A stretch of DNA of 64,000 bases from contig JAFEBB010000025.1 in the NCBI GenBank assembly GCA_018266075.1, positions 26,613 through 90,612 on the forward strand. The letters run 5' to 3'. The DNA comes from Deltaproteobacteria bacterium. GTDB lineage: Bacteria; Myxococcota; Myxococcia; Myxococcales; SZAS-1. A model generated the notes under the pieces. The model was not told the origin of the DNA. It ran no database searches and saw only the letters and a list, made by a program, of their open reading frames with translations. Both the position numbers and the translations under genes were made by a program. Positions 29,242-40,797 of this stretch are shown here, piece after piece. Every line of letters begins with the position of its first letter. Positions within the stretch are counted from its first letter, which is position 1.

Positions 29242-31011
29242 ATGACCTCACGAAAGCCGCTTGGCCTGCTCATTCCGGCCGCGCTCCTGGTGCTGTCCGG
29301 CTGCCTGAACGACGTCGCAGGCACCGACGGCGGACCGCTCGACACCACCTGCATCGAGTGCAACGACGCGGGGCCGGACGCTGGCGTCGATGCCGGCAAT
29401 CTCGGCGATGGCGGTGAATACGACGCGGGTCCAATCGACGCGGGGCCGATCGACGCGGGGCCGATCGACGCCGGTGCGATCGATGCCGGTCCGGTCGACG
29501 CGGGGCCGGTTGACGCCGGTCCGGAGGATGCTGGCCCTGTCGATGCCGGCCCGGTGGACGCGGGTCCGGAGGATGCGGGCCCGGTCGACGCAGGGCCCAT
29601 CGACGCGGGCCCGCAGGGAGATGGCGGCCCGTGGATCGCCCTCAGCGTCTCCGGAAATCCGGTGAACGTGCTCAGCGCGGTCGGCAGCGTGACCGCGGAT
29701 CCAGCGGTGGTGAGCGTGCACGTCGACTTCGCGACCTTGGTCGACGCGGGCCCGGCGACCTCGACGCCCGAGTTCGCGATGCGGTCGGGCGCGGTCATCG
29801 TTCCGGTGCTGCCGCTCCGGGCGCAGACGTCGTACAGCTTCACGGCCGTGGGCGCGCTCAGCGACGGCGGCACGCTCAGCAGCGCCCCGGCCACGCTCAC
29901 CACCAACGCGCTCCCGCTCGCGTTGCACGCCTTCACCGTGACCACCGACGGCGGCCCGATCGAGCCCGGGTACACGTTGATCGCGCGGCTGCCGCAGGTC
30001 GCTTCCGGCAGCGTGAACTACGTGAGCATCGTGGACGCCAGCGGCGCGCCGGTCTGGTACCTCGGCCTCAACCCGGGCCTGGTGGGCGACTTCCAGAAGC
30101 AGCCCGACGGCACGTACACCATTGCCGTGGACGATGTGGCCCACGCGGTCAGCGGGCTGCCCGAGGCGGTGGCCACGTTTGCGCAATACGACGTGCTCGG
30201 AAACCAGGTCGCGACCTGGGCCACGCAGGGCACCATCGCCACCGACTGCCACGAGTTCCTGCTCCAACCCGACGGCACTGCGCTCATGCTCGGCCTCGTG
30301 GAGCAGACCGTGGACATGAGCGCGTACGCCGCCAACGGCAACCCCAGCGCCACGGTCATCGAGAACGTGGTGCAGCGCGTGGCCCCCGACGGCGGCGTGC
30401 TCTTCTCCTGGAACACCTTCGACGATCTCTCGATCGACGCCATGGATCACACGGTGCCGCGCACGGGCAGCGTGATCGACGCCACCCACGCCAACTCCAT
30501 CGCCGTCCTCGCCGACGGCAACTACCTGGTGAGCCTGCGCAACATGAGCCAGTTGGTGAAGGTGAACGCCACCACCGGCGACGTGATGTGGAAGCTGGGC
30601 GGCCAGTACAGCGATGGCGGGGCCGCGGGCGACTTCAACTTCGTGAACGATCCGCTCGGCGGGTTCTCGCTGCAGCACGCGGCGCGCGAGCTCCCCAACG
30701 GCGACATCATCCTCTTCGACGACGGCAACGGGCACGTGCCCCCCCAGAGCCGCGCCGTGGAGTACATGCTCGACACCACCAGCTCGCCCATGACCGCCAC
30801 GCTGGTGTGGTCGGCCGAGGACTCGCCGCCGCTCTACGCGTACGCGCTCGGCTACGCGCAGCGGCTCGGCAACGGCGACACGCTCATCACCTACGGCACC
30901 ACCTCGCACGTGCAAGAGGTCGACACCAACGGGAACGTGCTCTGGGATCTCTTCGACCTCACGCATCCCTTCGGCATCTACCGCGCGTTCCGCGTGGGCT
31001 CGCTGTACTGA
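29242..31011 (+). CDS. Arylsulfotransferase (ASST)-like beta-propeller lipoprotein with DAGPx repeat linker
   Basis: Lipobox LVLSGC, 13 DAGPx pentapeptides, C-terminal region with ASST-like motifs (IDATHANSI, LQHAARELPNGDIILFDDGN). Confidence 0.8.
   Translation: MTSRKPLGLLIPAALLVLSGCLNDVAGTDGGPLDTTCIECNDAGPDAGVDAGNLGDGGEYDAGPIDAGPIDAGPIDAGAIDAGPVDAGPVDAGPEDAGPVDAGPVDAGPEDAGPVDAGPIDAGPQGDGGPWIALSVSGNPVNVLSAVGSVTADPAVVSVHVDFATLVDAGPATSTPEFAMRSGAVIVPVLPLRAQTSYSFTAVGALSDGGTLSSAPATLTTNALPLALHAFTVTTDGGPIEPGYTLIARLPQVASGSVNYVSIVDASGAPVWYLGLNPGLVGDFQKQPDGTYTIAVDDVAHAVSGLPEAVATFAQYDVLGNQVATWATQGTIATDCHEFLLQPDGTALMLGLVEQTVDMSAYAANGNPSATVIENVVQRVAPDGGVLFSWNTFDDLSIDAMDHTVPRTGSVIDATHANSIAVLADGNYLVSLRNMSQLVKVNATTGDVMWKLGGQYSDGGAAGDFNFVNDPLGGFSLQHAARELPNGDIILFDDGNGHVPPQSRAVEYMLDTTSSPMTATLVWSAEDSPPLYAYALGYAQRLGNGDTLITYGTTSHVQEVDTNGNVLWDLFDLTHPFGIYRAFRVGSLY
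29422..29616 (+). repeat. 13 tandem 15-nt repeats encoding DAG(P/A)x
   Basis: gac gcg ggg ccg atc-type units, in frame: DAGPI x3, DAGAI, DAGPV x2, DAGPE, DAGPV x2, DAGPE, DAGPV, DAGPI, DAGPQ. Confidence 0.95.
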
Positions 31012-32039: not shown

Positions 32040-32429
32040 CTACTGGCAGAACGACGAGTCGTCGCGCGTGGCCGAGCAGGCGCCGCTCGAGTTGCACTTG
32101 CCGTTGAGGCAGTACACGGCGAGCCACTGGTTGCTGCCGCTGGAGCACGAGCAGCACGTGGGCTGGCACTCGGTCGACGCGCTGCACGACTCGCCGTCCG
32201 ACTTGCTGCCGGTGAGGTTCGAAGGGTTCGAGGGACAGCCGCCGTTCACCTGCTCGGTGTTCGAGTCGCTGGAGCTCGAGCCCGTGGTGCCGCTGGTGCT
32301 GCCGCCGCTCGTGTTGCCGCCGTTGCCGCTTCCGTTTCCACCACTGTTGCCACCGCTGCTGCTGCCAGAGTTCCCTCCGCCGCAGCCCACCAGGCACGCC
32401 ACCACCACCGCAAAGAAGATCCGCTTCAT
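32040..32429 (-). CDS. Small Cys-rich lipoprotein with Gly/Ser linker
   Basis: Track ORF 32040..32495 trimmed to ATG 32429. MKRIFFAVVVACLVGC lipobox, G/S/N linker, then a 10-Cys C-terminal module (...CQPTCCSCSSGSNQWLAVYCLNGKCNSSGAC...). Confidence 0.7.
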   Translation of the reverse strand: MKRIFFAVVVACLVGCGGGNSGSSSGGNSGGNGSGNGGNTSGGSTSGTTGSSSSDSNTEQVNGGCPSNPSNLTGSKSDGESCSASTECQPTCCSCSSGSNQWLAVYCLNGKCNSSGACSATRDDSSFCQ

Positions 32430-32539
32430 GGCTCGCTCCGCCGGCGAATTCCGCCGAATCGACGGCGGCGGAATGCCGCGTCTCGTACGGTTCACCCGCG
32501 GGAGCGGAGGACTGCGCAGAAATTCTCAAAGCCCCGTCG

Positions 32540-33283
32540 TCAGAAGCAGACGCCGCCGCCGGTGGGGAAGGTGGTGCAGTGGTTGTTCTGGCAGTCGGCG
32601 TTGGTGTCGCAGGCCTGGCCGAAGGAGCCGTCGCTGCACTGGCCGAGCACGTCGTTCGGGTTGGCCTTGATGCACTTCCAGTTGGTGGGGCAGTCCGTGG
32701 CGTCGGCGCAGAGGCCGGCCAGGCAGACGCGATCCTTGCCGGTGATGTAGCCGTCGTTGCACACCGCGCCCATGGTGCCCTTGGGGCAGCTGCCGTCGCG
32801 CGCGCACGCGGGGTACGACTGACAGGAGGTGGTGGCGTTGCCGCTGTTGTCGCTGTTCTGGATGCAGATGGAGTTGGCGTTGCAGCCGTCGCTGCCGTCG
32901 AGGGTGACGTTGCAGACCGTGGTCGGCGGCGGCGTGCTGCAGAAGCCCGTCGAGCACACCTGGCTGCTCGCGCACTGGGAGTTGCTGCCGCAGGTGGGCA
33001 CGTCGATGTCCTGGCAGAGCCGCGTGCTCGCGGTGTCGCAGTACTGGTTGCTGGCGCAGTCGCCGTCGGTGGTGCAGCCCAGCTCGCAGATGCCGTTGAA
33101 GCAGAGCTGGCCGCTGGGGCAGGGGTTGGCGCTGGTGCACGGGATGATGGTCAGCGTGCCCGTGGTGCCGCCGCTGCTGCCGCTCGAGCCCGAGGTGCCG
33201 CTGGTGCCGCTGGTGCCGGTCTTCACGCCGCCGCCGCACGCGAGGAGCGCCACGCTCGTTAACAGGATGGTTAGGTTGCGCAT
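32540..33283 (-). CDS. Cys-rich repeat lipoprotein with S/T/G linker
   Basis: Track ORF 32540..33598 trimmed to ATG 33283. MRNLTILLTSVALLAC lipobox, TSGTSGTSGSSGSSGG linker, repeated C-x(n)-C-x(n)-G-x-C disulfide modules. Confidence 0.75.
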   Translation of the reverse strand: MRNLTILLTSVALLACGGGVKTGTSGTSGTSGSSGSSGGTTGTLTIIPCTSANPCPSGQLCFNGICELGCTTDGDCASNQYCDTASTRLCQDIDVPTCGSNSQCASSQVCSTGFCSTPPPTTVCNVTLDGSDGCNANSICIQNSDNSGNATTSCQSYPACARDGSCPKGTMGAVCNDGYITGKDRVCLAGLCADATDCPTNWKCIKANPNDVLGQCSDGSFGQACDTNADCQNNHCTTFPTGGGVCF

Positions 33284-33299
33284 GTCGTCTCCGCGTCCA

Positions 33300-34841
33300 T
33301 CAGATTCCCACCGCGACGCCCAGCCAGCCGAAGGGGAGGATGATCCAGGCGGCCTTGGCGTCGCGTTCGGTGAGGGCGAGCGGGAGCCGGGCCTCGGCGG
33401 TGAGCGCCACCGGCCCGGCGAGGTGCACCGCGGCGCCCAGGGATGCGGCCGCGGCGCCAATGGGCGAAGCGTCGACCTCGCCCGTGTCCCAGCCTTGAAC
33501 CGCGACGCCCGCGCCGGCCTCGCCCGCGATCCACGCGCGCACGGGACCGAGATCCGTGCCGAGCCGATAGCCCACGAGCGCGAGCATCGTCGTCTCACGG
33601 TAGTCCTGGGCGCGTCCGGTGCCGACCGCGAGCGTGATCGCCGAGCCTTGTGCGCTGTTGCCGCGCAGGGTGACGTCGGCGAGCGCCAGGCCCACGTTGG
33701 TCACGCCATAGCCGACGCCGAGCCCCACGCCGAGCTCGAGCCCGTTCGACGTCGGCGTCGGCGCGGCGGCCACGCTCACCGATGGATCGCCCTTGGTGGC
33801 GGCGGTGATCTCGGGGCCCAGCTTCACGTCGGTCCACGACACAGGATGGATTTCGCCGGCGGCGATCTGCACACGCCCGGTGAACGCGCGGCCCTCGCGC
33901 CACATCTTCACGCCGTACGGACCGGGCACCACCGCGAGCTGTCGCGCCGCGCCGGGAACGAGCTCGGCGATGACCTGATCGCGCACGAGGTCCGTCACCA
34001 GCGCGCGCTCGAAACCTTCGGGAAGCGTGACCGCCGCCGCGGGATGTCCCAGCTCCGCGAGCACGAGCTCGCCCTCGCCCGAGAGCTGCACGTCGAACTC
34101 GGGATGCTGCGGGCCGATCTCCGTCGCGGCCGTGGCAGACACGGTGTGCACGTACGCGTACTGGTACGCCTCGCTGAGCGTGACGCGCCCATCGCCCGAC
34201 GCATCCGCGGCGCCGCGCAATCCGGAGAGGAAGCTCTCGGTGAAGTAGCTCCCGCGCAGCTCCTTCGATTCGAGCGCCACCTCGTCGGCCGCGCTCGACG
34301 TCAGCAGCACCTGGCCGCTCGTCGCGAGCTCGTCGGTCAAGCGAATCTGAAAGCCGTTGCCGCGCGTGCCGCCCTTGAGCGTGAGCAGCCCGCCCGAGCG
34401 ACACGAGTCCACGATCGCCAACCGCACCTCGGCGCCCGTCGCCTGCAGCCGCCGCCGCAGCTCGCTGAACGGCAGCCGATCCTTGCCGAGCTCGAGCGCC
34501 TCGCCGTCCGAGTGCCCGGAAAAGTAGAAGACGAGCAGCACGCGCGCGTCGCCCTGTGCGTGGTACGCGGCGGTGCGCGTCTGCGCGCGGGTGAAGGCCT
34601 CGTCGAGCTCGGCGAGCGAGCGGCCCTGGAGGAGCTCGAGGTCATCGCGACCCACGTCGCCGACCTCGGCGAACGTGCGCGCCACCTTCCCGGCGTCATC
34701 CTCGGCGTAGTGGAGCGGCGGCTGATCGCCCGAGCCCGCGTTGTTGCCGACGACGATCGCCACGCGGCGGGTCTCGGCCCGCGCCGCACCGGTCCACGCG
34801 GCCAGGAGACCCGCAAGGGCGACGGCGAGGGCGCGGCTCAC
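33300..34841 (-). CDS. Exported caspase-like (peptidase C14) protein with C-terminal beta-barrel-like domain
   Basis: Track ORF 33300..35486 trimmed to GTG 34841 (GTGA overlap with the anti-sigma stop). Signal VSRALAVALAGLLAAWTGAARA. His/Cys dyad contexts LLVFYFSGHS and AIVDSCRSGG. C-terminal ~150 aa is G/A/V-rich with alternating hydrophobicity. Confidence 0.8.
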   Translation of the reverse strand: MSRALAVALAGLLAAWTGAARAETRRVAIVVGNNAGSGDQPPLHYAEDDAGKVARTFAEVGDVGRDDLELLQGRSLAELDEAFTRAQTRTAAYHAQGDARVLLVFYFSGHSDGEALELGKDRLPFSELRRRLQATGAEVRLAIVDSCRSGGLLTLKGGTRGNGFQIRLTDELATSGQVLLTSSAADEVALESKELRGSYFTESFLSGLRGAADASGDGRVTLSEAYQYAYVHTVSATAATEIGPQHPEFDVQLSGEGELVLAELGHPAAAVTLPEGFERALVTDLVRDQVIAELVPGAARQLAVVPGPYGVKMWREGRAFTGRVQIAAGEIHPVSWTDVKLGPEITAATKGDPSVSVAAAPTPTSNGLELGVGLGVGYGVTNVGLALADVTLRGNSAQGSAITLAVGTGRAQDYRETTMLALVGYRLGTDLGPVRAWIAGEAGAGVAVQGWDTGEVDASPIGAAAASLGAAVHLAGPVALTAEARLPLALTERDAKAAWIILPFGWLGVAVGI

Positions 34842-35584
34842 GGCGACGGCTCCTTCTCGAACCAGGTGCTCACTTCCGACGCACCCGGGACGCCCAGTAT
34901 TCCACCCGCGCGAATGGCCGGCGGGCCGCCTTGCGCCACGGCCGTCAACGCAGGCTGGACGCTCTCCGTCGAGATCGGCGCGTCGCTGAAGAGCGCGTAC
35001 AGCCGCTCCGGTCCAGGCGCGCGATCGAGCACCACGCTCCCGGGGATCTCCACGCGCGGACCCGAAATGGGCGCGCTCTCGTTGCCGTCGAACGGCTCGT
35101 ACACGCTCACCGTACCCGCGCCGTCGACGGACATGATGAGCAGGAACCTCCGCTTGCCCGGCTCGATCACGAAGCGGAGCTCGTCGCCGGCCGCGAGCAT
35201 CTCGCCGGGCCTGAGCGGCGACACGCGCGCGCCGTGCTTCACCACCACCTGCAGCGCGGGCCCGCCCTTGATGCCGTTGTCCGGCGCAGGCGGACGCAGG
35301 AGCACCAGCAGCAGAATCGGGATCGCCAACGCGAGCGCGGCGTAGAGCGGCGTCCGCGAGGTGAAGAACCGACGCCAGCCGCTCGCGCGCTCCACAGCAC
35401 CCGGCATCAGGAGCGGAAGCCTGGTGCTCGCGAACTGCGCCTGGCGTGCCTTGAGGTCGGCCAGCGTGGCGCTGCACGTGGCGCATGAGCCCAGGTGCGC
35501 CTCGAGGCTCGCGCGCTCGTCGGCTGGGAGCCCGCCGAGCAGGTAGGTGTCGAGCTTGAGCTGAGAGAGATGGCCGTCGCTCAT
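34838..35584 (-). CDS. Anti-sigma factor (zinc-binding ZAS type, single TM)
   Basis: HLGSCATC (H-x3-C-x2-C), TM LYAALALAIPILLLVLL, ~150-aa extracytoplasmic domain. ATGA overlap with the sigma gene. Confidence 0.8.
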   Translation of the reverse strand: MSDGHLSQLKLDTYLLGGLPADERASLEAHLGSCATCSATLADLKARQAQFASTRLPLLMPGAVERASGWRRFFTSRTPLYAALALAIPILLLVLLRPPAPDNGIKGGPALQVVVKHGARVSPLRPGEMLAAGDELRFVIEPGKRRFLLIMSVDGAGTVSVYEPFDGNESAPISGPRVEIPGSVVLDRAPGPERLYALFSDAPISTESVQPALTAVAQGGPPAIRAGGILGVPGASEVSTWFEKEPSP

Positions 35585-36066
35585 GGCTCGCTCCGGGCGA
35601 CGAACTTTCGCGCGCGCGCGAGGAAGTCGGCGAGGTGGTTCACCACGCTGCGCCGCGAGATGCCCAGCACCTTCGCGACCTCGTCCTGGGTGAGGCCATC
35701 GACATAGGTCAAATACGCGCAGGCCCGCAGCTTGGCGGGCACGCGGTCGATGAGCGCGCGCGCGAGCTGGGCGTCGGCGAGGCGCGCTTCACTCAGGTCA
35801 TCGGCGATCTCGGGAAGTGTGTCCGTCGGCTCGGCGCGCTTGCCGCGATCGCGGAGCTCATTGAGGCAATAGTTCGTGGCGATTCGATAGATCCACGGAA
35901 CGGCTTCGTCGACGTTGGGGGCTTCGGCGAGGTGGCGGTGGACGCGCACGAACGTCTCCTGGGTCGCGTCGTCGGCGGCTGCGCCGTCGCCCAGAATGCG
36001 GCGACAGCGCTCGTGGATGAGCGGTCCGTACGTGCGGAAAAGGCGCTCGAGCTCGGCCGCGGTCAT
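35581..36066 (-). CDS. ECF-family RNA polymerase sigma factor
   Basis: Track ORF 35581..36225 trimmed to ATG 36066. Region 2 (DATQETFVRVHRHL, WIYRIATNYCLNELR) and region 4 HTH (LTQDEVAKVLGISRRSVVNHL). Confidence 0.85.
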   Translation of the reverse strand: MTAAELERLFRTYGPLIHERCRRILGDGAAADDATQETFVRVHRHLAEAPNVDEAVPWIYRIATNYCLNELRDRGKRAEPTDTLPEIADDLSEARLADAQLARALIDRVPAKLRACAYLTYVDGLTQDEVAKVLGISRRSVVNHLADFLARARKFVARSEP

Positions 36067-36197
36067 TCCCGCGTCTGGGCTTAGCACGGTTCCGCCAGGC
36101 GGACGTGTCCGACGACTTGTGACGGGATAACCCGGGCGGGCGAGAGATTGCGCAAACGGAGTTCGCGCGCGAATCGGATAGCCTGCGCCTTCACGTG

Positions 36198-37400
36198 ATG
36201 CGGACTCTCTTCGCGGCCCTGGCATTCATTGCCTTCGCGTCTCCGGCGGTCGCGGCGCCGGTGCGCAAGCTCGCGGTGGTGGTGCCGCCGTCGTCGAGCT
36301 GCCCGGATGCGATCGCGGTGGTGGAGACGCTGCGCGAGGAGCTCCCGCGCTGGACCGTCGCGCCGGGCGGGCAGGGCGAGGCGCTCTCGGCCGTGGTCGA
36401 GCTCGCGAAGCCGGACACGCTCGCGGTGAAGCTCATCGATCACGGGCGGCTCGTGGAGCATCGCTCGATCGAGTTCGCGCCGGGCGGCTGCGCGGACCTG
36501 CCGCGCACCATCTCGCTCATCGTGAAGCTCTGGGTGCGCGCGTTGCCCGGCGTGCGCGATGAAGCGCCGGAGCCCAAGCCCGTTCGCCAGATCGCGAAGC
36601 GGCAGCAGCCTGTACGCGAAGAGCCGAAGCCGGAGCCTGTCGCGATCGCGCCCGAGCCGCACGAGACGCCGGCGATTCCGGAGCCGCCGCCGCAAGTCGC
36701 CGCTCCCATGCCCGCGCCGGATGCGGGGCCACCGCCGACGATTCCGCCGCCGCAGCCGGCGCCCCCGCCGCCGCCGGTCGTCGTTGCCGTCGCCGATGTG
36801 CCGAAGCCCGCGCCCAATGCGGCGGTTGCGCATCCCGCCGAGTCGAAGCCCGCCGCGAGCACCTGGACGCTTCCGCCGCTGCACCTCGAGCTGCTCGCGG
36901 GCGGTGGAGGGATGGCGTCGTTCAGCGGCGACGTGTCGCCCACTGCGGGGCTGCGCATCGATCTCGGGATGGGCGCGCGGTTTGGACTGGAGCTACACGG
37001 CGCGTGGGACGGCTCGCTCACCGGCAGAAGCGATGGCGGCTCCGTCACGGTCAGCCGACAAGCGCTCGCGCTGCAGCTTCGCGCGACGCTTCATCCGCGC
37101 AGCGTCGACACGAGCCGCATCCTGATTCTCGCGGGACCCGCTTTGCAGCACGTCTCGGGGCAGAGCGCGAACTTCCAAGGCGCCAACAGCGCCAGCTCCA
37201 CGGACTTCGGCGGCGAGCTCGGCGCGCTCTGGGCACAGGATCTTCCCGCGGGCTTCGCCATCGCCGGAGGACCCTCCGCGCGGCTCTGGAGCCGCTCGGA
37301 CAACTTCTGGGTGAAGATCAGCGGCAATCCGCACACCCTCGAATCCACGCCTCAATTCTGGCTGGGCGCCGAGGTCTGCGTGACCTACCGCGTGTTTTGA
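36198..37400 (+). CDS. Exported protein with Pro-rich linker and C-terminal outer-membrane beta-barrel-like domain
   Basis: Signal MRTLFAALAFIAFASPAVA (GTG 36195 is an alternative start), a ~90-aa Pro-rich tract, beta-strand-rich C-terminus ending VTYRVF (aromatic terminal residue typical of OMPs). Confidence 0.7.
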   Translation: MRTLFAALAFIAFASPAVAAPVRKLAVVVPPSSSCPDAIAVVETLREELPRWTVAPGGQGEALSAVVELAKPDTLAVKLIDHGRLVEHRSIEFAPGGCADLPRTISLIVKLWVRALPGVRDEAPEPKPVRQIAKRQQPVREEPKPEPVAIAPEPHETPAIPEPPPQVAAPMPAPDAGPPPTIPPPQPAPPPPPVVVAVADVPKPAPNAAVAHPAESKPAASTWTLPPLHLELLAGGGGMASFSGDVSPTAGLRIDLGMGARFGLELHGAWDGSLTGRSDGGSVTVSRQALALQLRATLHPRSVDTSRILILAGPALQHVSGQSANFQGANSASSTDFGGELGALWAQDLPAGFAIAGGPSARLWSRSDNFWVKISGNPHTLESTPQFWLGAEVCVTYRVF

Positions 37401-37434
37401 AGGTAGTTGAAGCCCGGGACACTCACCGGGCCTC

Positions 37435-38019
37435 GTGAAGCCCCAACTGGTTCATTCGGCGCGCGACGCCTTCGAGCCGGAGCTGTCCGCGGTGGAGGTG
37501 GCCGTGTCGGCAGCGCCGAGCTTGTCGAGCTTGTACGCCACGCACCTGCCGTTCGTGCGGCGCGCGGTGGCGCACCTCGCCGGGCCCGACCTCGAGCACG
37601 ACGACCTCGTTCAGGACGTGTTCGTGCAAGCGGTGAAGAGCCACCACACCTTCGAGTCGCGTTCGAGCGTGCAGACCTGGCTCTACGGCATCGCCCTGCG
37701 CGTCGTCGGCAATGCGCGGCGGCGCGCGAAGTTTCGCCGGCTGCTCGGCTTGCAGGCCAAGCAGGAGCCCCAAGCGCCATCGACCGACGCGAGCCAGCTT
37801 CTGGATCGCGCGCAGACGCGCGCGTCGGTGCATCGAATCCTCGAACGGCTGCCGGAGAAGAAGCGCACCGTGCTCGTGCTGCATGAGCTCGAGGGCGTGC
37901 CCGGCGAAGAGATCGCGGAGATCTTGCAGTGTCCCGTGGGCACGGTCTGGACGCGGCTGCACCACGCGCGAAGGCAGTTTCAGCTCGAGCTCGAGAAGGA
38001 AGCCGGGAGGTCGCCATGA
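37435..38019 (+). CDS. ECF-family RNA polymerase sigma factor (second)
   Basis: DLVQDVFVQAVKS, WLYGIALRVVGNARR and the region 4 HTH IAEILQCPVGTVWTRLHHAR. The start may lie downstream of GTG 37435. Confidence 0.85.
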   Translation: MKPQLVHSARDAFEPELSAVEVAVSAAPSLSSLYATHLPFVRRAVAHLAGPDLEHDDLVQDVFVQAVKSHHTFESRSSVQTWLYGIALRVVGNARRRAKFRRLLGLQAKQEPQAPSTDASQLLDRAQTRASVHRILERLPEKKRTVLVLHELEGVPGEEIAEILQCPVGTVWTRLHHARRQFQLELEKEAGRSP

Positions 38020-39191
38020 AACCCACTCCCTGGACGACGGAGGCCGCCGAGCCTGCGGAGAAGCGGGCCGCCGAGGCGCTGGCAGCGGCGCGTGTCGAGC
38101 CCGAGCCGTGGTCGCCGGCCAAGGAGCGTGAGGTGCTCGCGGCGGTTCGCGCGCGCGTGGAGGAGCGGCCGTCGCTCGCGGGACGGCTGGTGCTCTTTGC
38201 CGCGGTGGCCGGTGCGTCGGCAGCGGCCGTCTTCTTCGCGTCTCGCCTCGTCTCGTCGACGCCGCCCGCGCCGCCGCAGCTCCTCGCCTCCGCCGATGCC
38301 GACTACACGGTGACGCCGAGCGCGCCTTCGCAGCCTGTGGCGCTGAGCGTTCACCGCGGCTCGGTCCACGTGAAGCGCGATGCGTCTGGGGTGTACACGC
38401 TCGACGCGCCGGGGCTGAGCGGGCGAGTCGAAGCGCGCGTGTTCGACGTGCAGGTCGCCGGTGCGCGTGCAGAGCTCGTGGTGGAGGAGGGCAGTGCCGA
38501 CGTCGTCACGCGCGACGGCCGCACGCTCCACATCGCCGCGGGTCAGCGCATCGCCTCGGATGATCCCCGGCTCCAACCGCCGACGCCTGCGCCGCAACCG
38601 CAGCCCCAGCCGCAGCATGCGTCGACGCGGTCGCCAAGCGCTGACTTGTGCGCGGCCATCACCGATCTCGCGTCGCGTCGCGCGTGCTACGTGCGCGTGG
38701 CCCAGGGCGACGACCTCGCCGCGCAGAACGCGATGATGGAGCTGGGCATGCTCGAGCAGGACGAAGCCCACGATGGCGCTTCGGCGCTCGAGTATTGGAG
38801 CGCCTACCAGAAGCGCTTCCCCGCGGGCGCGCTCGGGCCCGAGGCCTCGGTGGCGATCCTGGGAGAGCTGCTCTCGGAGCAGAAGCTCGTCGAGGCGCGC
38901 AAGGAAGCGGAGAGCTTCATGGCCAAGTATCCGCAGGACGGTCGCGTGGGCGAGCTGCGCATCACGCGCGCGTCGCTGGGCTGCCAGCTTCGCGGCGCGT
39001 CCGGGTTGAGTGAGCTCGACGCGCTCGAGGGCGTGGCGGGCGTGGATCTGCCGTCGCTGCGGCTCGAGCAGGGCAAGTGCGAGGCGCGGCTGGGTCGCCA
39101 TGATGAAGCGCGGGAGCACTGGCTCGATGCGGTCCAGCGCGATCCGAATGGGCCGCACGTCGACGAGCTGCGACGTCTGCTGGGCGAATGA
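38016..39191 (+). CDS. FecR-like anti-sigma factor / transmembrane sensor with TPR-like C-terminus
   Basis: ATG 38016 overlaps the sigma stop (ATGA). TM LVLFAAVAGASAAAVFFA. FecR-like beta region (VHRGSVHVKRD...VVEEGSADVVTRDGRTLHIAAGQ). Confidence 0.75.
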   Translation: MKPTPWTTEAAEPAEKRAAEALAAARVEPEPWSPAKEREVLAAVRARVEERPSLAGRLVLFAAVAGASAAAVFFASRLVSSTPPAPPQLLASADADYTVTPSAPSQPVALSVHRGSVHVKRDASGVYTLDAPGLSGRVEARVFDVQVAGARAELVVEEGSADVVTRDGRTLHIAAGQRIASDDPRLQPPTPAPQPQPQPQHASTRSPSADLCAAITDLASRRACYVRVAQGDDLAAQNAMMELGMLEQDEAHDGASALEYWSAYQKRFPAGALGPEASVAILGELLSEQKLVEARKEAESFMAKYPQDGRVGELRITRASLGCQLRGASGLSELDALEGVAGVDLPSLRLEQGKCEARLGRHDEAREHWLDAVQRDPNGPHVDELRRLLGE

Positions 39192-39237
39192 AGGTGTTTC
39201 CGGGTCGAGACACCTACGGGCCACTTCGGAGGTCCAC

Positions 39238-40797
39238 ATGAGGCTCAGGTTCTTCGCGCTGGTCGTCGCAATCGGTGTTGCGGGTTGCCAGGACAAACAG
39301 CTCCAGGTCGGCGAGGCGTCTTCGTCGGGCTCGAGCGGCACCACTTCGAGCTCGGGCTCGACTGCGACATCCGCGAGCAGCAGCGCGTCGTCGTCGAGCT
39401 CGAGCAGCACGTCGACATCGGGCAGCAGCGCGTCGTCGTCCTCGACCACCAGCAGCTCGTCGACGAGCAGCGGCAGCGGCTCCACCAGCACCACAGGCAG
39501 CTCGGGAAGCTCGAGCGGCTCGACGACCGGCGGCCAGGCTGCGTTCTGCAGCGACATGGTTCAGCCGCTGTGCACGCTCAAGAAGGCCTGCGGCCTGCTC
39601 GATCCGCAGGCGGACTGCAGCATCGCCGCAGCATCGATGACGCAGCAGTGCAACGACGGAAACCTTGCCTTCGATCTCGGCGCCGCGACCACGTGCCTGA
39701 CCGCGCTCCAGACCGCGTCGCAGAGCAGCGACTGCAACAGCCCGCTCCTCACGCTGCAGACGAACGCGTGCTCGAGCGTGTTCAAGCCCAACGTGCCCGA
39801 GGGCGGAACGTGCTCCGTCGGCTCGACGAACGAGTGCATCCCGCGACCGGACGGCGGCGAGGTTCCGTGCCAGGGCCCGCCATTCGCGTCGTGCACGGGC
39901 GTGTGCAGCCTGGGCCCGCTCCTCGGTCAGCCGTGCGTCACCGGCTGCCAGGAGGGCGTGTGTGACCAGAGCTCCGGCACCTGCGTGCCCTTCACCGACG
40001 GCGGCCCGTGCCAGGGCATCGACACCGGGTGCGAGCCCGGGGTGGAGTTCTGCAACCACGACGGCGGCGCCGGCTACTGCTCGCCCCGCGGCCAGCCGGG
40101 CGAGAGCTGCTCCGACTGGAACGGCGACACGTGCGCCCCTGGCAGCACCTGCGTGGAGCCGGCCGACGGCGGCCGCGACGCCTACTGCTTCGCGCAGATC
40201 GCCGTGGGCCAGGCCTGCCCGCAGGAGCTGAGCGGAAGCGCCATTTGCCAGGGCAACGCCCAGTGCGTGGACGGCAGCTGCCAGATCACGGTCGCCGTGG
40301 AGGGCGAGCCGTGTGACGCGACGATCGCGTGCTACGGCAGCGTGTGCAACAACCCCGACGGCGGCGCAGGGGTGTGCATCGACGGCCCGACGCTCGGCCA
40401 GCCGTGCAACGGGGGCGCCTGCGCGCAGGGCCTGGTGTGCGCGTCGGGGACCTGCCAGAGCGCTCAGACGGCAGGTGAGTCGTGCTTCTCGGTGAACTGC
40501 ACCACGGGAGACTACTGCGACAGCACCAACACCTGCCGGGTGCTCGGCGGCCTCGGCGACGCGTGCGACCCCAATTCGATCTACTGGCCGTGCCGAGAGG
40601 GCCACTGTGACACGACCGGCCACTGCTCGGCATTCAAGGCGCCAGGCATGGCCTGCAACCCGTTCGATCTGGACTGCTCGGCCTTCATCGGCACCACCAC
40701 GCCCACCGACGGTGGCCCGGTGATGAAGTTCGACTCCGCCTGCCAAGCGACGACCGACGGCGGCGGTTCGGTCTGTGTCCAGCTGAGCTGTCCGTAG
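39238..40797 (+). CDS. Large Cys-rich repeat lipoprotein with Ser-rich linker
   Basis: Track ORF 39010..40797 trimmed to ATG 39238 (GGAGG upstream). MRLRFFALVVAIGVAGC lipobox, ~73-aa Ser/Thr/Gly tract, about 9 repeats of the G-x-x-C...C...G-x-C type. Confidence 0.8.
   Translation: MRLRFFALVVAIGVAGCQDKQLQVGEASSSGSSGTTSSSGSTATSASSSASSSSSSSTSTSGSSASSSSTTSSSSTSSGSGSTSTTGSSGSSSGSTTGGQAAFCSDMVQPLCTLKKACGLLDPQADCSIAAASMTQQCNDGNLAFDLGAATTCLTALQTASQSSDCNSPLLTLQTNACSSVFKPNVPEGGTCSVGSTNECIPRPDGGEVPCQGPPFASCTGVCSLGPLLGQPCVTGCQEGVCDQSSGTCVPFTDGGPCQGIDTGCEPGVEFCNHDGGAGYCSPRGQPGESCSDWNGDTCAPGSTCVEPADGGRDAYCFAQIAVGQACPQELSGSAICQGNAQCVDGSCQITVAVEGEPCDATIACYGSVCNNPDGGAGVCIDGPTLGQPCNGGACAQGLVCASGTCQSAQTAGESCFSVNCTTGDYCDSTNTCRVLGGLGDACDPNSIYWPCREGHCDTTGHCSAFKAPGMACNPFDLDCSAFIGTTTPTDGGPVMKFDSACQATTDGGGSVCVQLSCP
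39316..39534 (+). repeat. Ser/Thr/Gly low-complexity coding tract
   Basis: Encodes ASSSGSSGTTSSSGSTATSASSSASSSSSSSTSTSGSSASSSSTTSSSSTSSGSGSTSTTGSSGSSSGSTTGG. Confidence 0.85.

What the first reader, a model, noticed from the sequence alone, without database searches (positions are those of the whole stretch)
32040..36066. ECF sigma - ZAS anti-sigma - exported caspase-like protease operon ending in disulfide-rich lipoproteins
Five minus-strand genes run head to tail:
- an ECF sigma (35581..36066)
- an anti-sigma with HLGSCATC and one TM helix (34838..35584)
- a signal-peptide protein with caspase/C14 His and Cys contexts, FYFSGHS and IVDSCRSG (33300..34841)
- two lipoproteins with S/T/G linkers and Cys-rich modules (32540..33283, 32040..32429)

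The first two junctions are ATGA/GTGA overlaps. A 9-bp hairpin (32448..32474) separates the two lipoprotein genes. The protease ends in a ~150-aa G/A/V-rich segment of alternating hydrophobicity (GLELGVGLGVGYGVTNVGLALADVTLRG...). That segment looks like an outer-membrane beta-barrel anchor, giving an autotransporter-like display of a caspase fold. I know of no characterised ECF regulon with this composition. The protease might process the anti-sigma factor or the co-encoded lipoproteins.
Basis: partly seen in the sequence, partly recalled or inferred. Interest (0 to 1): 0.7.

Follow-up and report, generated by a model that had tools for sequence, protein, structure and literature searches.

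The report
Sigma factor module with outer-membrane caspase
This is a three-gene signalling cassette found across many myxobacteria: a stress sigma factor, its membrane anti-sigma factor, and a caspase-like protease anchored by a small outer-membrane barrel. The protease probably faces the periplasm and may switch the system on by cutting the anti-sigma factor, but no one has tested this.

Summary
Five head-to-tail minus-strand genes encode:
- an ECF sigma
- a zinc-finger (HxxxCxxC) single-pass anti-sigma
- a signal-peptide Peptidase_C14 protein with an invariant His110/Cys147
- two Cys-rich lipoproteins

AlphaFold2 and Foldseek show the protease C-terminus is an 8-stranded OmpA/OmpX/NspA-like barrel, not a 12-stranded autotransporter barrel. 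The caspase domain should therefore be periplasmic, not surface-displayed.

Sigma, anti-sigma and caspase sit adjacent in 66 of 80 Myxococcota loci, usually with 4-nt overlaps. The lipoproteins are lineage-specific.

A promoter motif, TGCRCA-N15-GGGTY, precedes the sigma gene in most loci. A matrix built without the window gives two top hits in the 64 kb: upstream of sigma and upstream of lipoprotein 2. Related loci carry a second copy just after the caspase gene, driving varied envelope proteins.

The anti-sigma periplasmic domain is DUF4384-like. An invariant Lys-Gly lies in its disordered juxtamembrane linker. Conserved Lys-Gly pairs also lie in two disordered linkers of the protease, whose S1 residues look metacaspase-like (Lys/Arg-specific).

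Best reading, inferred only: the caspase is the site-1 protease of this anti-sigma. Sigma–metacaspase operons were noted in 2012, and DdvA and Craspase are precedents. I rate it a new variant of a known kind.

The parts
36124..36160 (-). Promoter P1 of the operon. The -35 element TGCGCA is at 36154..36149 and the -10 element GGGTTA is at 36133..36128, with a 15-nt spacer.
   Evidence: A position weight matrix built from 45 other loci, without the window, scores 19.1 here. That is the best hit in the 64 kb on either strand. The same bipartite motif lies upstream of sigma in 45 of 61 loci.
35581..36066 (-). ECF (group 4) sigma factor, 161 aa.
   Evidence: Sigma70_r2 at 5e-16, Sigma70_r4_2 at 3e-8, TIGR02937 at 1e-21. 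The N-terminus MTAAELERLFRTYGP matches homologue starts. Orthologues at 42-61% identity sit in the same position in related loci.
34838..35584 (-). Single-pass transmembrane ZAS anti-sigma factor, 248 aa.
- H30-x3-C34-x2-C37 at 35474..35497.
- TM helix at 35297..35356.
- Disordered linker carrying invariant K106-G107 at 35264..35269.
- Periplasmic Ig-like/DUF4384-like beta-sandwich at 34841..35263.
   Evidence: zf-HC2 at 2e-6; DUF4384 at 0.009, below the cut-off. Homologues P0130-P0132 carry PF14326. AF2 model pLDDT is 89.8, with helices 8-59, TM 77-96, disorder 99-105 and strands 110-244. K106 is Lys in 65 of 66 sequences and G107 is Gly in 66 of 66. ATGA overlap with sigma.
33300..34841 (-). 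Exported caspase-fold (orthocaspase/metacaspase-like) cysteine protease with a C-terminal outer-membrane anchor, 513 aa.
- Signal peptide at 34776..34841.
- C14 domain at 34122..34775, with His110 at 34512..34514 and Cys147 at 34401..34403.
- Conserved K156-G157 in a disordered loop at 34371..34376.
- Beta-sandwich at 33837..34100.
- Disordered tether at 33744..33812 carrying conserved K350-G351.
- 8-stranded barrel at 33303..33740.
   Evidence: Peptidase_C14 at 1.8e-13. The dyad, K156/G157 and K350/G351 are conserved in alignment A1. AF2 pLDDT is 82.8 overall and above 90 for the barrel. Foldseek matches caspase-6/-9/-7 and metacaspase-9, plus OmpA-TM, NspA, Ail, OmpX and OmpW. GTGA overlap with the anti-sigma.
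32540..33283 (-). Lipoprotein 1, 247 aa, 29 Cys. It starts 16 nt after the caspase stop, with no promoter motif in between, so it is probably co-transcribed.
   Evidence: Lipobox LLAC followed by a G/S/T linker. Dickkopf_N at 25.1 bits against a cut-off of 25. It belongs to a small family of about 20 clusters. In the same position in L007 (39% identity) and in L081. Elsewhere its homologues sit next to other ECF modules without a caspase.
32488..32524 (-). Promoter P2, of the same sigma type, in front of lipoprotein 2. The -35 element TGCGCA is at 32518..32513 and the -10 element GGGTGA is at 32497..32492.
   Evidence: PWM score 15.2, the second-best hit in the whole window. The next hit scores 13.0 and lacks the -10 element; all others score 7.5 or less. 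First-order Markov simulations give 0.083 hits of 15 or more per window. The motif is conserved in L081.
32448..32474 (-). 9-bp inverted repeat with a 9-nt loop. It lies in the predicted 5' UTR of lipoprotein 2, downstream of P2, and has no U-tract.
   Evidence: Sequence confirmed. The RNA fold of the UTR gives z = -0.23 against shuffles. The stem arms are kept in the 93%-identity relative, but the whole spacer is 92% identical there.
32040..32429 (-). Lipoprotein 2, 129 aa: a G/S/N linker followed by a roughly 70-aa, 10-Cys domain.
   Evidence: Lipobox LVGC. No Pfam or NCBIfam family. The domain has 113 cluster representatives at E <= 1e-3, mostly proteins of 95-130 aa.

Best explanation
**Shown.** The locus is a Myxococcota-wide three-gene envelope-signalling cassette:
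- an ECF sigma
- a single-pass zinc-finger anti-sigma with a periplasmic DUF4384-like Ig-fold domain
- a Sec-exported metacaspase-type cysteine protease

The protease's catalytic domain and a beta-sandwich are tied by a roughly 23-residue disordered tether to an 8-stranded outer-membrane barrel. The cassette is driven by an autoregulated promoter, TGCRCA-N15-GGGTY. A second copy of that promoter drives lineage-specific envelope proteins; here that is lipoprotein 2, with lipoprotein 1 read through from the operon.

**Inferred mechanism.**
1. The barrel is inserted in the outer membrane with both termini periplasmic, so the caspase faces the periplasm.
2. An unknown envelope cue activates it. 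Activation possibly involves self-cleavage at the conserved Lys-Gly in the loop after Cys147 (K156-G157) and at the Lys-Gly in the tether (K350-G351).
3. The protease then acts as the site-1 protease. It cuts the anti-sigma at the invariant Lys106-Gly107 in its disordered juxtamembrane linker.
4. An RseP-type site-2 protease and cytoplasmic proteases finish the job.
5. The freed sigma transcribes P1 (positive feedback) and P2.
For: Module and synteny:
- Domain identities.
- Invariant dyad.
- Sigma and anti-sigma lie directly upstream on the same strand in 66 of 80 loci spanning Kofleriaceae, Polyangia, Myxococcaceae and Archangiaceae.
- The association is reciprocal. Anti-sigma homologues P0132 and P0135 are each followed by a Peptidase_C14 gene with a 4-nt overlap. 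The same holds on the P0002 contig.

Barrel:
- AF2 predicts 8 strands with pLDDT above 90.
- Foldseek matches OmpA-TM at 1e-6, NspA (TM-score 0.70), Ail, OmpX, OprF-N and OmpW.

Promoter and regulon:
- A PWM trained on other genomes picks exactly P1 and P2 as the two top hits in the window.
- About 26 secondary sites occur in 1.26 Mb of loci, against about 1.6 expected by extrapolation from the simulations. Ten of them lie within about 55 nt after the caspase stop.
- These sites drive lipoproteins, exported proteins and TM proteins.

Protease-to-anti-sigma link:
- The anti-sigma periplasmic domain is DUF4384-like.
- The literature reports DUF4384 fused to proteases, including caspase homologues. 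It also forms the C-terminal domain of some Csx30 proteins, the sigma-binding substrates of the caspase-like Csx29.
- K106 and G107 are invariant in a segment with pLDDT below 50.
- K156/G157 are invariant and K350/G351 are at least 90% conserved in otherwise variable, low-pLDDT linkers of the protease.
- The only local profile-profile match between the two families pairs the two KGG segments (E = 0.05).
- Alignment to metacaspase-1 and AtMC4 places D49 and D145 at the acidic S1 positions. Orthocaspases cut after basic residues (PMC6426788 abstract).

Precedent: M. xanthus DdvA, a ZAS anti-sigma with a periplasmic caspase-fold CHAT domain, is proposed to act as its own site-1 protease upstream of RseP (PMC11506125).
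Against: - There is no direct evidence of cleavage or interaction. The KGG profile match is not statistically significant.
- Paralogous caspase-barrel genes with the same Lys-Gly motifs exist without an adjacent sigma or anti-sigma (13 loci, e.g. L073). The protease family therefore has a function independent of this anti-sigma, and its own Lys-Gly sites need not relate to the anti-sigma.
- An outer-membrane-anchored enzyme must reach an inner-membrane substrate across the periplasm and peptidoglycan, unless it is released from its tether.
- Co-transcription of effectors with sigma/anti-sigma pairs is common, so synteny alone cannot separate sensor from output.
- The periplasmic orientation rests on general OMP topology, not on a test.
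- The window's own DUF4384 hit is below Pfam's cut-off.
Confidence: 0.45

Rival explanations
1. Output model. The anti-sigma senses the signal by itself through its DUF4384 domain, or is cut by a housekeeping protease. The outer-membrane-anchored caspase is simply a regulon product. It would be an envelope effector that processes or degrades periplasmic or outer-membrane proteins, possibly the co-regulated lipoproteins, during stress, development or predation.
For: - The caspase is transcribed from the sigma's own promoter together with variable envelope proteins.
- Paralogues with identical architecture occur with no sigma or anti-sigma nearby. This shows a sigma-independent role for the family.
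- ECF operons often carry effectors.
Against: - It does not explain why the caspase is the one invariant partner while all other outputs vary, nor the reciprocal anti-sigma-to-caspase adjacency with 4-nt overlaps.
- It does not explain the invariant Lys-Gly in the anti-sigma's disordered linker.
- It does not explain the recurrent DUF4384-protease association in the literature.
Confidence: 0.3
2. Tether/partner model. The anti-sigma DUF4384 domain binds the periplasmic part of the outer-membrane-anchored caspase without being cut. This forms a trans-envelope bridge. Disruption of the bridge, through outer-membrane damage or a change in periplasm width, exposes the anti-sigma to other proteases. 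This would resemble a TonB-transducer/FecR or RcsF/IgaA-type logic.
For: - One partner is outer-membrane-anchored and the other inner-membrane-anchored, each on a flexible linker.
- Tight translational coupling suggests a stoichiometric complex.
- Precedent: TonB-dependent transducers protect their anti-sigma from proteolysis (PMC11637429, abstract).
Against: - The catalytic dyad and the S1-type residues are strictly conserved. A pure scaffold would not need them.
- No interaction data exist.
Confidence: 0.12
3. First reader's model. The C-terminal barrel works like an autotransporter and displays the caspase on the cell surface.
For: The layout is an N-terminal passenger-like domain, a flexible linker and a C-terminal barrel.
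Against: - The barrel has 8 strands. Among its barrel matches, those with good TM-scores are 8-stranded barrels (OmpA-TM, NspA, Ail, OmpX, OmpW), which have no translocation pore.
- There is no Autotransporter or related Pfam hit in any of 37 homologues.
- There is no alpha-helical plug segment before the barrel.
- The partner anti-sigma domain is periplasmic.
Confidence: 0.06
4. Cytoplasmic redox switch. The ZAS motif senses thiol oxidation, as in RsrA, and releases sigma. The periplasmic parts would be irrelevant to signalling.
For: H-x3-C-x2-C is invariant.
Against: - Many membrane ZAS anti-sigmas, such as RsiW and ChrR-type proteins, are not redox switches (established knowledge).
- The periplasmic domain and the adjacent caspase are as conserved as the ZAS motif itself.
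Confidence: 0.05

Closest known systems
Sigma-metacaspase operons of Myxococcus xanthus DK1622 and other Deltaproteobacteria (Asplund-Samuelsson et al. 2012, PMC3501461)
   Same: This is almost certainly the same kind of operon. Four of the five M. xanthus metacaspases were reported in predicted operons with sigma-70-family sigma factors. The same was seen in Anaeromyxobacter, Haliangium and Sorangium.
   Different: That paper only lists the co-occurrence. It does not describe the anti-sigma, DUF4384, the outer-membrane barrel, the promoter, the regulon or any mechanism. I could not map the window's genes to specific MXAN loci.
DdvS/DdvA of M. xanthus (PMC11506125)
   Same: It pairs an ECF sigma with a single-pass ZAS anti-sigma. 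A periplasmic caspase-fold His-Cys protease module is proposed to cut the flexible linker next to the TM helix as site-1 protease, followed by RseP. It is restricted to Myxococcota.
   Different: - In DdvA the protease module is a TPR-CHAT domain fused to the anti-sigma and acts in trans within a dimer. Here it is a separate Peptidase_C14 protein anchored in the outer membrane, and the anti-sigma carries a small DUF4384-like domain.
- The DdvA regulon is a CBASS/CRISPR defence island. Here the regulon is lipoproteins and envelope proteins.
Type III-E CRISPR Craspase: Csx29 (TPR-CHAT), Csx30 and the ECF sigma RpoE
   Same: A caspase-fold protease cleaves a sigma-binding, anti-sigma-like protein in a flexible linker. 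Some Csx30 C-terminal domains are DUF4384.
   Different: Craspase is cytoplasmic, RNA-guided and CRISPR-associated, and uses CHAT rather than C14. It has no membrane components.
Regulated intramembrane proteolysis of anti-sigmas: sigmaE-RseA-DegS-RseP and sigmaW-RsiW-PrsW-RasP
   Same: The proposed logic is the same: a dedicated site-1 protease clips the extracytoplasmic part of a single-pass anti-sigma, then a site-2 protease acts. RsiW is also a ZAS anti-sigma. This is established knowledge.
   Different: The known site-1 proteases are serine proteases, metalloproteases or signal peptidases located at the inner membrane. None is a caspase-fold cysteine protease or is anchored in the outer membrane by a barrel.
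Bacterial orthocaspases and eukaryotic metacaspases (Peptidase C14B)
   Same: Same caspase-hemoglobinase fold and His-Cys dyad. The motif pattern also matches: xxDA / SGH / DSCxSG, with acidic S1 positions.
   Different: Sequence similarity is weak (E = 0.018 to PDB metacaspase-1 with a family profile). This protein is exported and has a beta-sandwich plus an outer-membrane barrel. Characterised members are cytoplasmic.
Eight-stranded outer-membrane barrels (OmpA N-domain, OmpX, NspA, Ail, OmpW)
   Same: Same predicted fold and size. Residues at positions 1, 3, 5 and 7 from the C-terminus are hydrophobic.
   Different: No sequence-family hit. The last residue is Ile or Leu rather than Phe in most members. 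The soluble domain lies N-terminal to the barrel, the reverse of OmpA.
[quoted passage not shown]
   Same: An ECF/anti-sigma system physically linked to the outer membrane through a beta-barrel. This rests on the abstract listed.
   Different: In Dma the barrel is part of the anti-sigma itself and no protease is involved. I did not read this paper beyond the abstract.

Membership tests
ECF (group 4) sigma-70 factors | Sigma2 and sigma4 domains only, about 160-200 aa | tested here: met
   Sigma70_r2 at 58.6 bits and Sigma70_r4_2 at 33.7 bits, both above their cut-offs. TIGR02937 at 77 bits against a cut-off of 42.9. Length 161 aa.
ECF (group 4) sigma-70 factors | Co-transcribed cognate anti-sigma and an autoregulated promoter | tested here: met
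   ATGA overlap with a ZAS anti-sigma. A conserved bipartite motif lies upstream of sigma in 45 of 61 loci and in the window. Promoter activity itself was not tested.
Class I / ZAS anti-sigma factors | N-terminal anti-sigma domain with H-x3-C-x2-C | tested here: met
   zf-HC2 at 28 bits against a cut-off of 22.2. The motif is present in 65 of 66 family members. A helical N-terminal bundle is predicted.
Class I / ZAS anti-sigma factors | Binds zinc and its sigma | not testable with these tools
   Requires biochemistry.
Peptidase C14 (caspase/metacaspase/orthocaspase) | Pfam PF00656 above the gathering score | tested here: met
   51.1 bits against 21.4. All 37 homologues match.
Peptidase C14 (caspase/metacaspase/orthocaspase) | Catalytic His-Cys dyad in the canonical motifs | tested here: met
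   FSGH110SD and VDSC147RS. Both residues are invariant in A1.
Peptidase C14 (caspase/metacaspase/orthocaspase) | Caspase-hemoglobinase fold | tested here: met
   Foldseek matches caspase-6, -9, -7 and -3 and metacaspase-9 at E = 1e-6 to 1e-4, with target TM-scores up to 0.66.
Peptidase C14 (caspase/metacaspase/orthocaspase) | Metacaspase-type acidic S1 pocket (Arg/Lys specificity) | tested here: inconclusive
   Weak profile alignments to 7qp0 and 6w8s put D49 and D145 at the ND and DSC positions. The mapping of these positions to the S1 pocket rests on my knowledge of metacaspase structures. Activity was not tested.
Classical autotransporter (type Va) | C-terminal 12-stranded barrel (PF03797) with a linker threaded through its pore | tested here: not met
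   8 predicted strands. No Autotransporter Pfam hit in 37 members. The barrel-region Foldseek matches are almost all small 8-stranded barrels.
OmpA/OmpX-like 8-stranded outer-membrane barrels | 8 antiparallel amphipathic strands closing a barrel of about 150 aa | tested here: met
   AF2 strands span residues 368-512 with pLDDT above 90. NspA target TM-score 0.70, OmpX 0.64, OmpA-TM 0.65.
OmpA/OmpX-like 8-stranded outer-membrane barrels | Sequence-family membership (Pfam OMP_b-brl, OmpA_membrane and similar) | tested here: not met
   No such hit at E <= 0.1 in any of 37 members. The resemblance is in fold only.
OmpA/OmpX-like 8-stranded outer-membrane barrels | Actual insertion in the outer membrane with periplasmic termini | not testable with these tools
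   Requires fractionation and protease-accessibility experiments.
DUF4384 (PF14326) | Pfam model above the gathering score | tested here: inconclusive
   The window protein scores 16.6 bits against a cut-off of 27. Homologues P0130, P0131 and P0132 carry precomputed PF14326 hits, one of them marked weak. The model shows an Ig-like sandwich with no strong PDB match.
Bacterial lipoproteins | Signal peptide ending in a lipobox [LVI][ASTVI][GAS]C | tested here: met
   LLAC|GGG in lipo1 and LVGC|GGG in lipo2, read directly from the sequence. No dedicated predictor was available.
DdvA-type anti-sigma | Periplasmic TPR-CHAT domain fused to the ZAS anti-sigma | tested here: not met
   The anti-sigma is 248 aa with only a beta-sandwich of about 140 aa. 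It has no CHAT or TPR hit.

The most novel reading that the evidence does not exclude
The module is a trans-envelope proteolytic switch of a kind not yet demonstrated. A caspase-fold cysteine protease is parked on the inner face of the outer membrane by an 8-stranded barrel. On an envelope cue it activates itself and releases itself by cutting its own Lys-Gly sites. It then acts as the site-1 protease on the Lys-Gly of a DUF4384 anti-sigma at the inner membrane.

If true, this would assign a signalling function to a large family of bacterial caspase homologues. It would also define DUF4384 as a caspase-recognition module shared with Csx30.
Probability: 0.3. Interest if true: 0.8.

Novelty: new variant of a known kind. 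Interest (0 to 1): 0.58.

Why it matters
Bacterial caspase homologues are abundant, yet almost none has a known physiological substrate. Most ECF sigma systems also lack a known trigger or site-1 protease.

This cassette is present in many Myxococcota genomes. The genome scan found 251 related stretches, and the protein search found hundreds of proteins. It offers a concrete, testable pairing of a caspase-fold protease with a candidate substrate. The candidate cleavage site is Lys106-Gly107, and there is a ready transcriptional read-out in the TGCRCA-N15-GGGTY promoters.

The cassette would extend the emerging theme of caspase-like proteases controlling ECF sigma factors, seen in Craspase-Csx30 and DdvA. 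It would be an unfused, outer-membrane-anchored periplasmic version of that theme, and it would give DUF4384 a function. M. xanthus, a genetic model, is reported to carry sigma-metacaspase operons.

Tried and rejected
- **Autotransporter reading.** Rejected on strand number and fold matches.
- **Hairpin as a meaningful terminator or riboswitch.** It has no U-tract, its folding z-score is -0.23, and it lies downstream of P2.
- **Lipoproteins as conserved operon members.**
  - tblastn found lipo1 in only 1 of 80 loci and lipo2 in none.
  - A 67%-identity relative lacks both.
  - lipo1 homologues elsewhere sit next to sigma2-like ECF modules, without a caspase and without the promoter motif.
- **Protease middle domain as DUF4384.** There is no Pfam support, only weak CarboxypepD_reg and fn3_3 hits.
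- **Sequence search of the protease against PDB.** A single-sequence search gave nothing relevant. The profile search gave nothing at 0.01 and only weak metacaspase hits at E <= 10.
- **Anti-sigma model against PDB.** No match below 1e-3, and no Csx30 hit.
- **Divergent gene 36195..37400 as a homologue of the caspase barrel or a regulon member.** BLASTP gave E = 2.2. The best plus-strand PWM score in the spacer is 3.9. It has no homologue in the related loci.
- **ECF group assignment.** The main text of Casas-Pastor 2021 and its preprint do not mention caspase, C14 or DUF4384. Its supplements are not held.
- **Literature searches.** Searches for M. xanthus + metacaspase + ECF, and for orthocaspase + periplasm + anti-sigma, found no characterisation.
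- **Profile-profile comparison of the anti-sigma and protease families.** The only match is the KGG segment, at E = 0.05. I report it as suggestive only.

Full report
**1. What is in the sequence**

The window is about 70% G+C throughout.

- **35581..36066** is an ECF sigma: Sigma70_r2 at 5e-16, Sigma70_r4_2 at 3e-8, TIGR02937 at 1e-21.
- **34838..35584** matches zf-HC2 at 2e-6. It carries HLGSCATC at 35474..35497 and one hydrophobic helix.
- **33300..34841** matches Peptidase_C14 at 1.8e-13, which is 51 bits against a gathering score of 21.4. It starts with a plausible signal peptide, MSRALAVALAGLLAAWTGAARA|E.
- **32540..33283 and 32040..32429** begin with signal peptides that end in lipoboxes (LLAC, LVGC). 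G/S/T-rich linkers and Cys-rich modules follow, with 29 and 12 Cys.

The ATGA (sigma/anti-sigma) and GTGA (anti-sigma/protease) overlaps are real. So is the 9-bp inverted repeat at 32448..32474.

**2. The protease**

The word-indexed search returned 899 relatives at E <= 1e-3. The 120 best are nearly all about 500 aa and mostly cover over 94% of the query at 46-55% identity. The named ones are all Myxococcota 'caspase family protein' entries.

In an alignment of 37 of them, His110 and Cys147 are invariant. So are D49, D145, S108/G109 and many others.

An AlphaFold2 model built on that alignment has mean pLDDT 82.8. It shows:
- a caspase-type alpha/beta domain at residues 23-240
- a beta-sandwich at about 248-333
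- a disordered segment at 344-365
- eight long antiparallel strands at 368-512, with pLDDT above 90

Foldseek against the PDB returns two kinds of match at E = 1e-6 to 1e-4:
- caspases-6, -9, -7 and -3 and plant metacaspase-9
- 8-stranded outer-membrane barrels: OmpA transmembrane domain, NspA (target TM-score 0.70), Ail, OmpX, OprF N-domain and OmpW

The 'autotransporter-like display' reading is not supported:
- The barrel has 8 strands rather than 12.
- No autotransporter family matches any of the 37 members.
- No helical plug precedes the barrel.

In all characterised 8-stranded barrels both termini are periplasmic and the lumen is closed (established knowledge). The N-terminal caspase should therefore hang into the periplasm on its roughly 23-residue tether. 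This orientation is an inference, not a test.

Weak but sensible profile alignments to metacaspase-1 (7qp0, E = 0.018) and Arabidopsis metacaspase-4 (6w8s) pair three motifs:
- LRyAEaDA with LRGCINDA
- FYFSGHS with FHYSGHG
- DSCkSG with DSCHSG

This puts D49 and D145 at the positions I know as the acidic S1 residues of metacaspases. It predicts cleavage after Lys or Arg, as reported for orthocaspases (PMC6426788 abstract).

**3. The anti-sigma**

Its homologues keep H30-x3-C34-x2-C37. Three of them carry precomputed PF14326 (DUF4384) hits. The window protein itself scores below the cut-off, at 0.009.

The AlphaFold2 model has pLDDT 89.8. It shows:
- an N-terminal helical anti-sigma domain
- a TM helix at residues 77-96
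- a disordered stretch at 99-105
- an Ig-like beta-sandwich at 110-244

The sandwich has no PDB match better than 2e-3.

**4. Conservation of the gene order**

A scan of one genome per GTDB species found 251 related stretches. The best 80 are all Myxococcota: Kofleriaceae, Polyangia, Myxococcaceae, Archangiaceae, and cultured Pyxidicoccus, Myxococcus and Corallococcus.

tblastn with the window's proteins finds an anti-sigma homologue directly upstream of the protease on the same strand in 66 of the 80. A sigma homologue precedes it wherever the contig extends far enough.

The association is reciprocal. Two anti-sigma homologues looked up independently (P0132, P0135) are each followed by a Peptidase_C14 gene of about 530 aa with a 4-nt overlap. 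A 67%-identity relative has both 4-nt overlaps.

Thirteen loci carry a paralogous caspase-barrel gene with no sigma or anti-sigma next to it. One example is L073, which has a Maf-like gene upstream.

The lipoproteins are not part of the conserved core:
- lipo1 recurs in the same position only in L007 (39% identity) and in a 93%-identity relative. lipo2 recurs only in that close relative.
- The 67% relative has neither.
- lipo1 homologues elsewhere (L082, L084) lie divergent from a different ECF operon. That operon's sigma resembles the window's second sigma at 37435..38019, and there is no caspase.

**5. Promoter and regulon**

Upstream of the sigma genes there is a bipartite motif with fixed spacing, TGC[GA]CA-N15-GGGT[TC]. 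It is often preceded by a T-rich or AAAGG stretch, and it occurs in 45 of 61 loci with enough upstream sequence.

I built a weight matrix from those 45 instances, excluding the window. Scanning all 64 kb on both strands gave these results:

| Position (strand) | Score | Location |
|---|---|---|
| 36124..36160 (-) | 19.1 | upstream of sigma |
| 32488..32524 (-) | 15.2 | in the lipo1-lipo2 spacer, upstream of lipo2 |
| 40318..40354 (-) | 13.0 | inside a gene; lacks the -10 element |
| all others | 7.5 or less | |

First-order Markov simulations give 0.083 hits of 15 or more per window. So lipo2 has its own promoter of the sigma's type. lipo1 starts 16 nt after the protease stop and is probably read through.

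It is not more stable than shuffled sequence (z = -0.23).

In the related loci the same matrix finds about 26 secondary sites, against roughly 1.6 expected by extrapolation from the simulations. Ten of them lie within about 55 nt after the protease stop: L001, L002, L003, L005, L017, L030, L035, L063, L075 and L077.

The genes behind these sites are unrelated to each other. They include lipoproteins with Big_5, PPC, WD40 or Cys-rich domains, exported proteins, and a GIDE-family membrane protein in the Archangium clade. The regulon thus has a constant core and a fast-changing set of envelope proteins.

One caveat applies. The sigma-upstream instances were pre-selected with a regular expression. 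The window hits and the secondary sites are independent of that selection.

**6. Clues to mechanism**

In the anti-sigma family, Lys106 is conserved in 65 of 66 sequences (Arg in one) and Gly107 in 66 of 66. They lie in the otherwise variable, low-confidence linker between the TM helix and the beta-sandwich.

The protease family has two similar features:
- K156-G157 is invariant. It sits nine residues after the catalytic Cys, in the low-pLDDT loop 150-174. This is the position of the intersubunit linker where caspases and metacaspases self-process (my knowledge).
- K350-G351 is at least 90% conserved in the otherwise unalignable tether to the barrel.

A profile-profile comparison of the two families returns a single local match. 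It is exactly the anti-sigma GIKG--GPALQVV against the protease TLKGGTRGNGFQIR (E = 0.05, not significant).

With the predicted Lys/Arg specificity, this suggests the following sequence:
1. Self-activation and perhaps self-release of the protease.
2. Site-1 cleavage of the anti-sigma at K106|G107.
3. RseP-type intramembrane cleavage.

Three points from the literature fit this:
- DUF4384 is reported as fused to proteases, including caspase homologues.
- DUF4384 forms the C-terminal domain of some Csx30 proteins. These are the ECF-sigma-binding substrates of the caspase-like Csx29.
- M. xanthus DdvA is a ZAS anti-sigma whose periplasmic caspase-fold CHAT domain is proposed to cut its own juxtamembrane linker before RseP acts.

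Against the model:
- Nothing here shows an interaction.
- The sigma-less paralogues keep the same protease Lys-Gly motifs.
- The enzyme must bridge the periplasm.
- Effectors are often co-transcribed with their sigma.

I put the site-1 model at about 0.45, the pure-output model at about 0.3, and a non-proteolytic trans-envelope tether at about 0.12.

**7. Comparison with what is known**

The co-occurrence of metacaspases and sigma factors in operons was reported in 2012, without further analysis. It covered M. xanthus (four of five metacaspases), Anaeromyxobacter, Haliangium and Sorangium.

I found no paper that characterises such an operon. The main text of the ECF reclassification does not mention it, and its supplements were not available.

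The module works like regulated-proteolysis ECF systems (sigmaE/RseA/DegS, sigmaW/RsiW/PrsW). It most resembles DdvA-DdvS and Craspase-Csx30 in using a caspase-fold enzyme. It differs from all of them in three ways:
- The protease is a separate C14-family protein.
- The protease is anchored by an outer-membrane barrel.
- The anti-sigma carries a small DUF4384-like domain.

The following appear to be undescribed: the barrel anchor, the anti-sigma domain assignment, the promoter motif, the secondary promoters and the conserved Lys-Gly sites. I rate the finding a new variant of a known kind, with interest about 0.58.

Noticed in passing
window 36195..40797 (+): A second ECF module is transcribed divergently from the first. 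It comprises:
- an exported 401-aa protein with a Pro-rich linker and a C-terminal beta-rich segment ending ...FWLGAEVCVTYRVF
- a second ECF sigma (37435..38019)
- a 391-aa anti-sigma-like protein with a C-terminal TPR (38016..39191)
- a 520-aa, 51-Cys lipoprotein with an S/T-rich linker (39235..40797)

In L082 and L084, sigma2-like operons lie divergent from lipo1 homologues. The caspase cassette may therefore have been inserted between an older sigma2 module and the lipoprotein pair.
   Followed up: partly
L016, L051, L054, L064, L073, L074 (about 0.1-3 kb downstream of the protease paralogue): Sigma-less paralogues of the caspase-barrel gene are usually followed by a conserved gene of about 200 aa. 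A convergent lipoprotein of about 760 aa with 33-36 Cys then follows. In L051 that lipoprotein sits directly behind a sigma/anti-sigma pair carrying the same promoter motif (score 30).
   Followed up: no
L017 11597, L019 7030 and 13243, L023 5449, L030 11616, L046 13174, L055 13155: In the Archangium/Myxococcaceae clade the secondary promoter drives a conserved membrane protein of about 520-570 aa. It starts MGxLLLIVGL..HLKGKRILAAPFKKTGD and has GIDE and PPC Pfam hits. It is sometimes present in two copies per locus.
   Followed up: partly
window 29242..31011 (+): A lipoprotein with an arylsulfotransferase (ASST) beta-propeller domain (1e-28). It is preceded by a tandem (P/I)(V/I)DAGP repeat region.
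   Followed up: no
window 33303..33340 and 37356..37397: The caspase barrel family ends in a nearly invariant LPxxWLGxxVxL. The unrelated divergent exported protein ends in a similar PQFWLGAEV... stretch. This may be a shared lineage-specific beta-signal. BLASTP gave only E = 2.2.
   Followed up: partly
window 40318..40354 (-): The third-best promoter-matrix hit (score 13.0) has a good -35 element, TTGCACA. It has no GGGTY -10 element and lies antisense inside the 520-aa lipoprotein gene. It is probably chance.
   Followed up: no
window 32043..32258 (-): The roughly 70-aa, 10-Cys domain of lipoprotein 2 defines an unnamed family. There are 113 cluster representatives at E <= 1e-3. Most are small proteins, and some carry 3-14 tandem copies (P0165, P0168).
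   Followed up: partly
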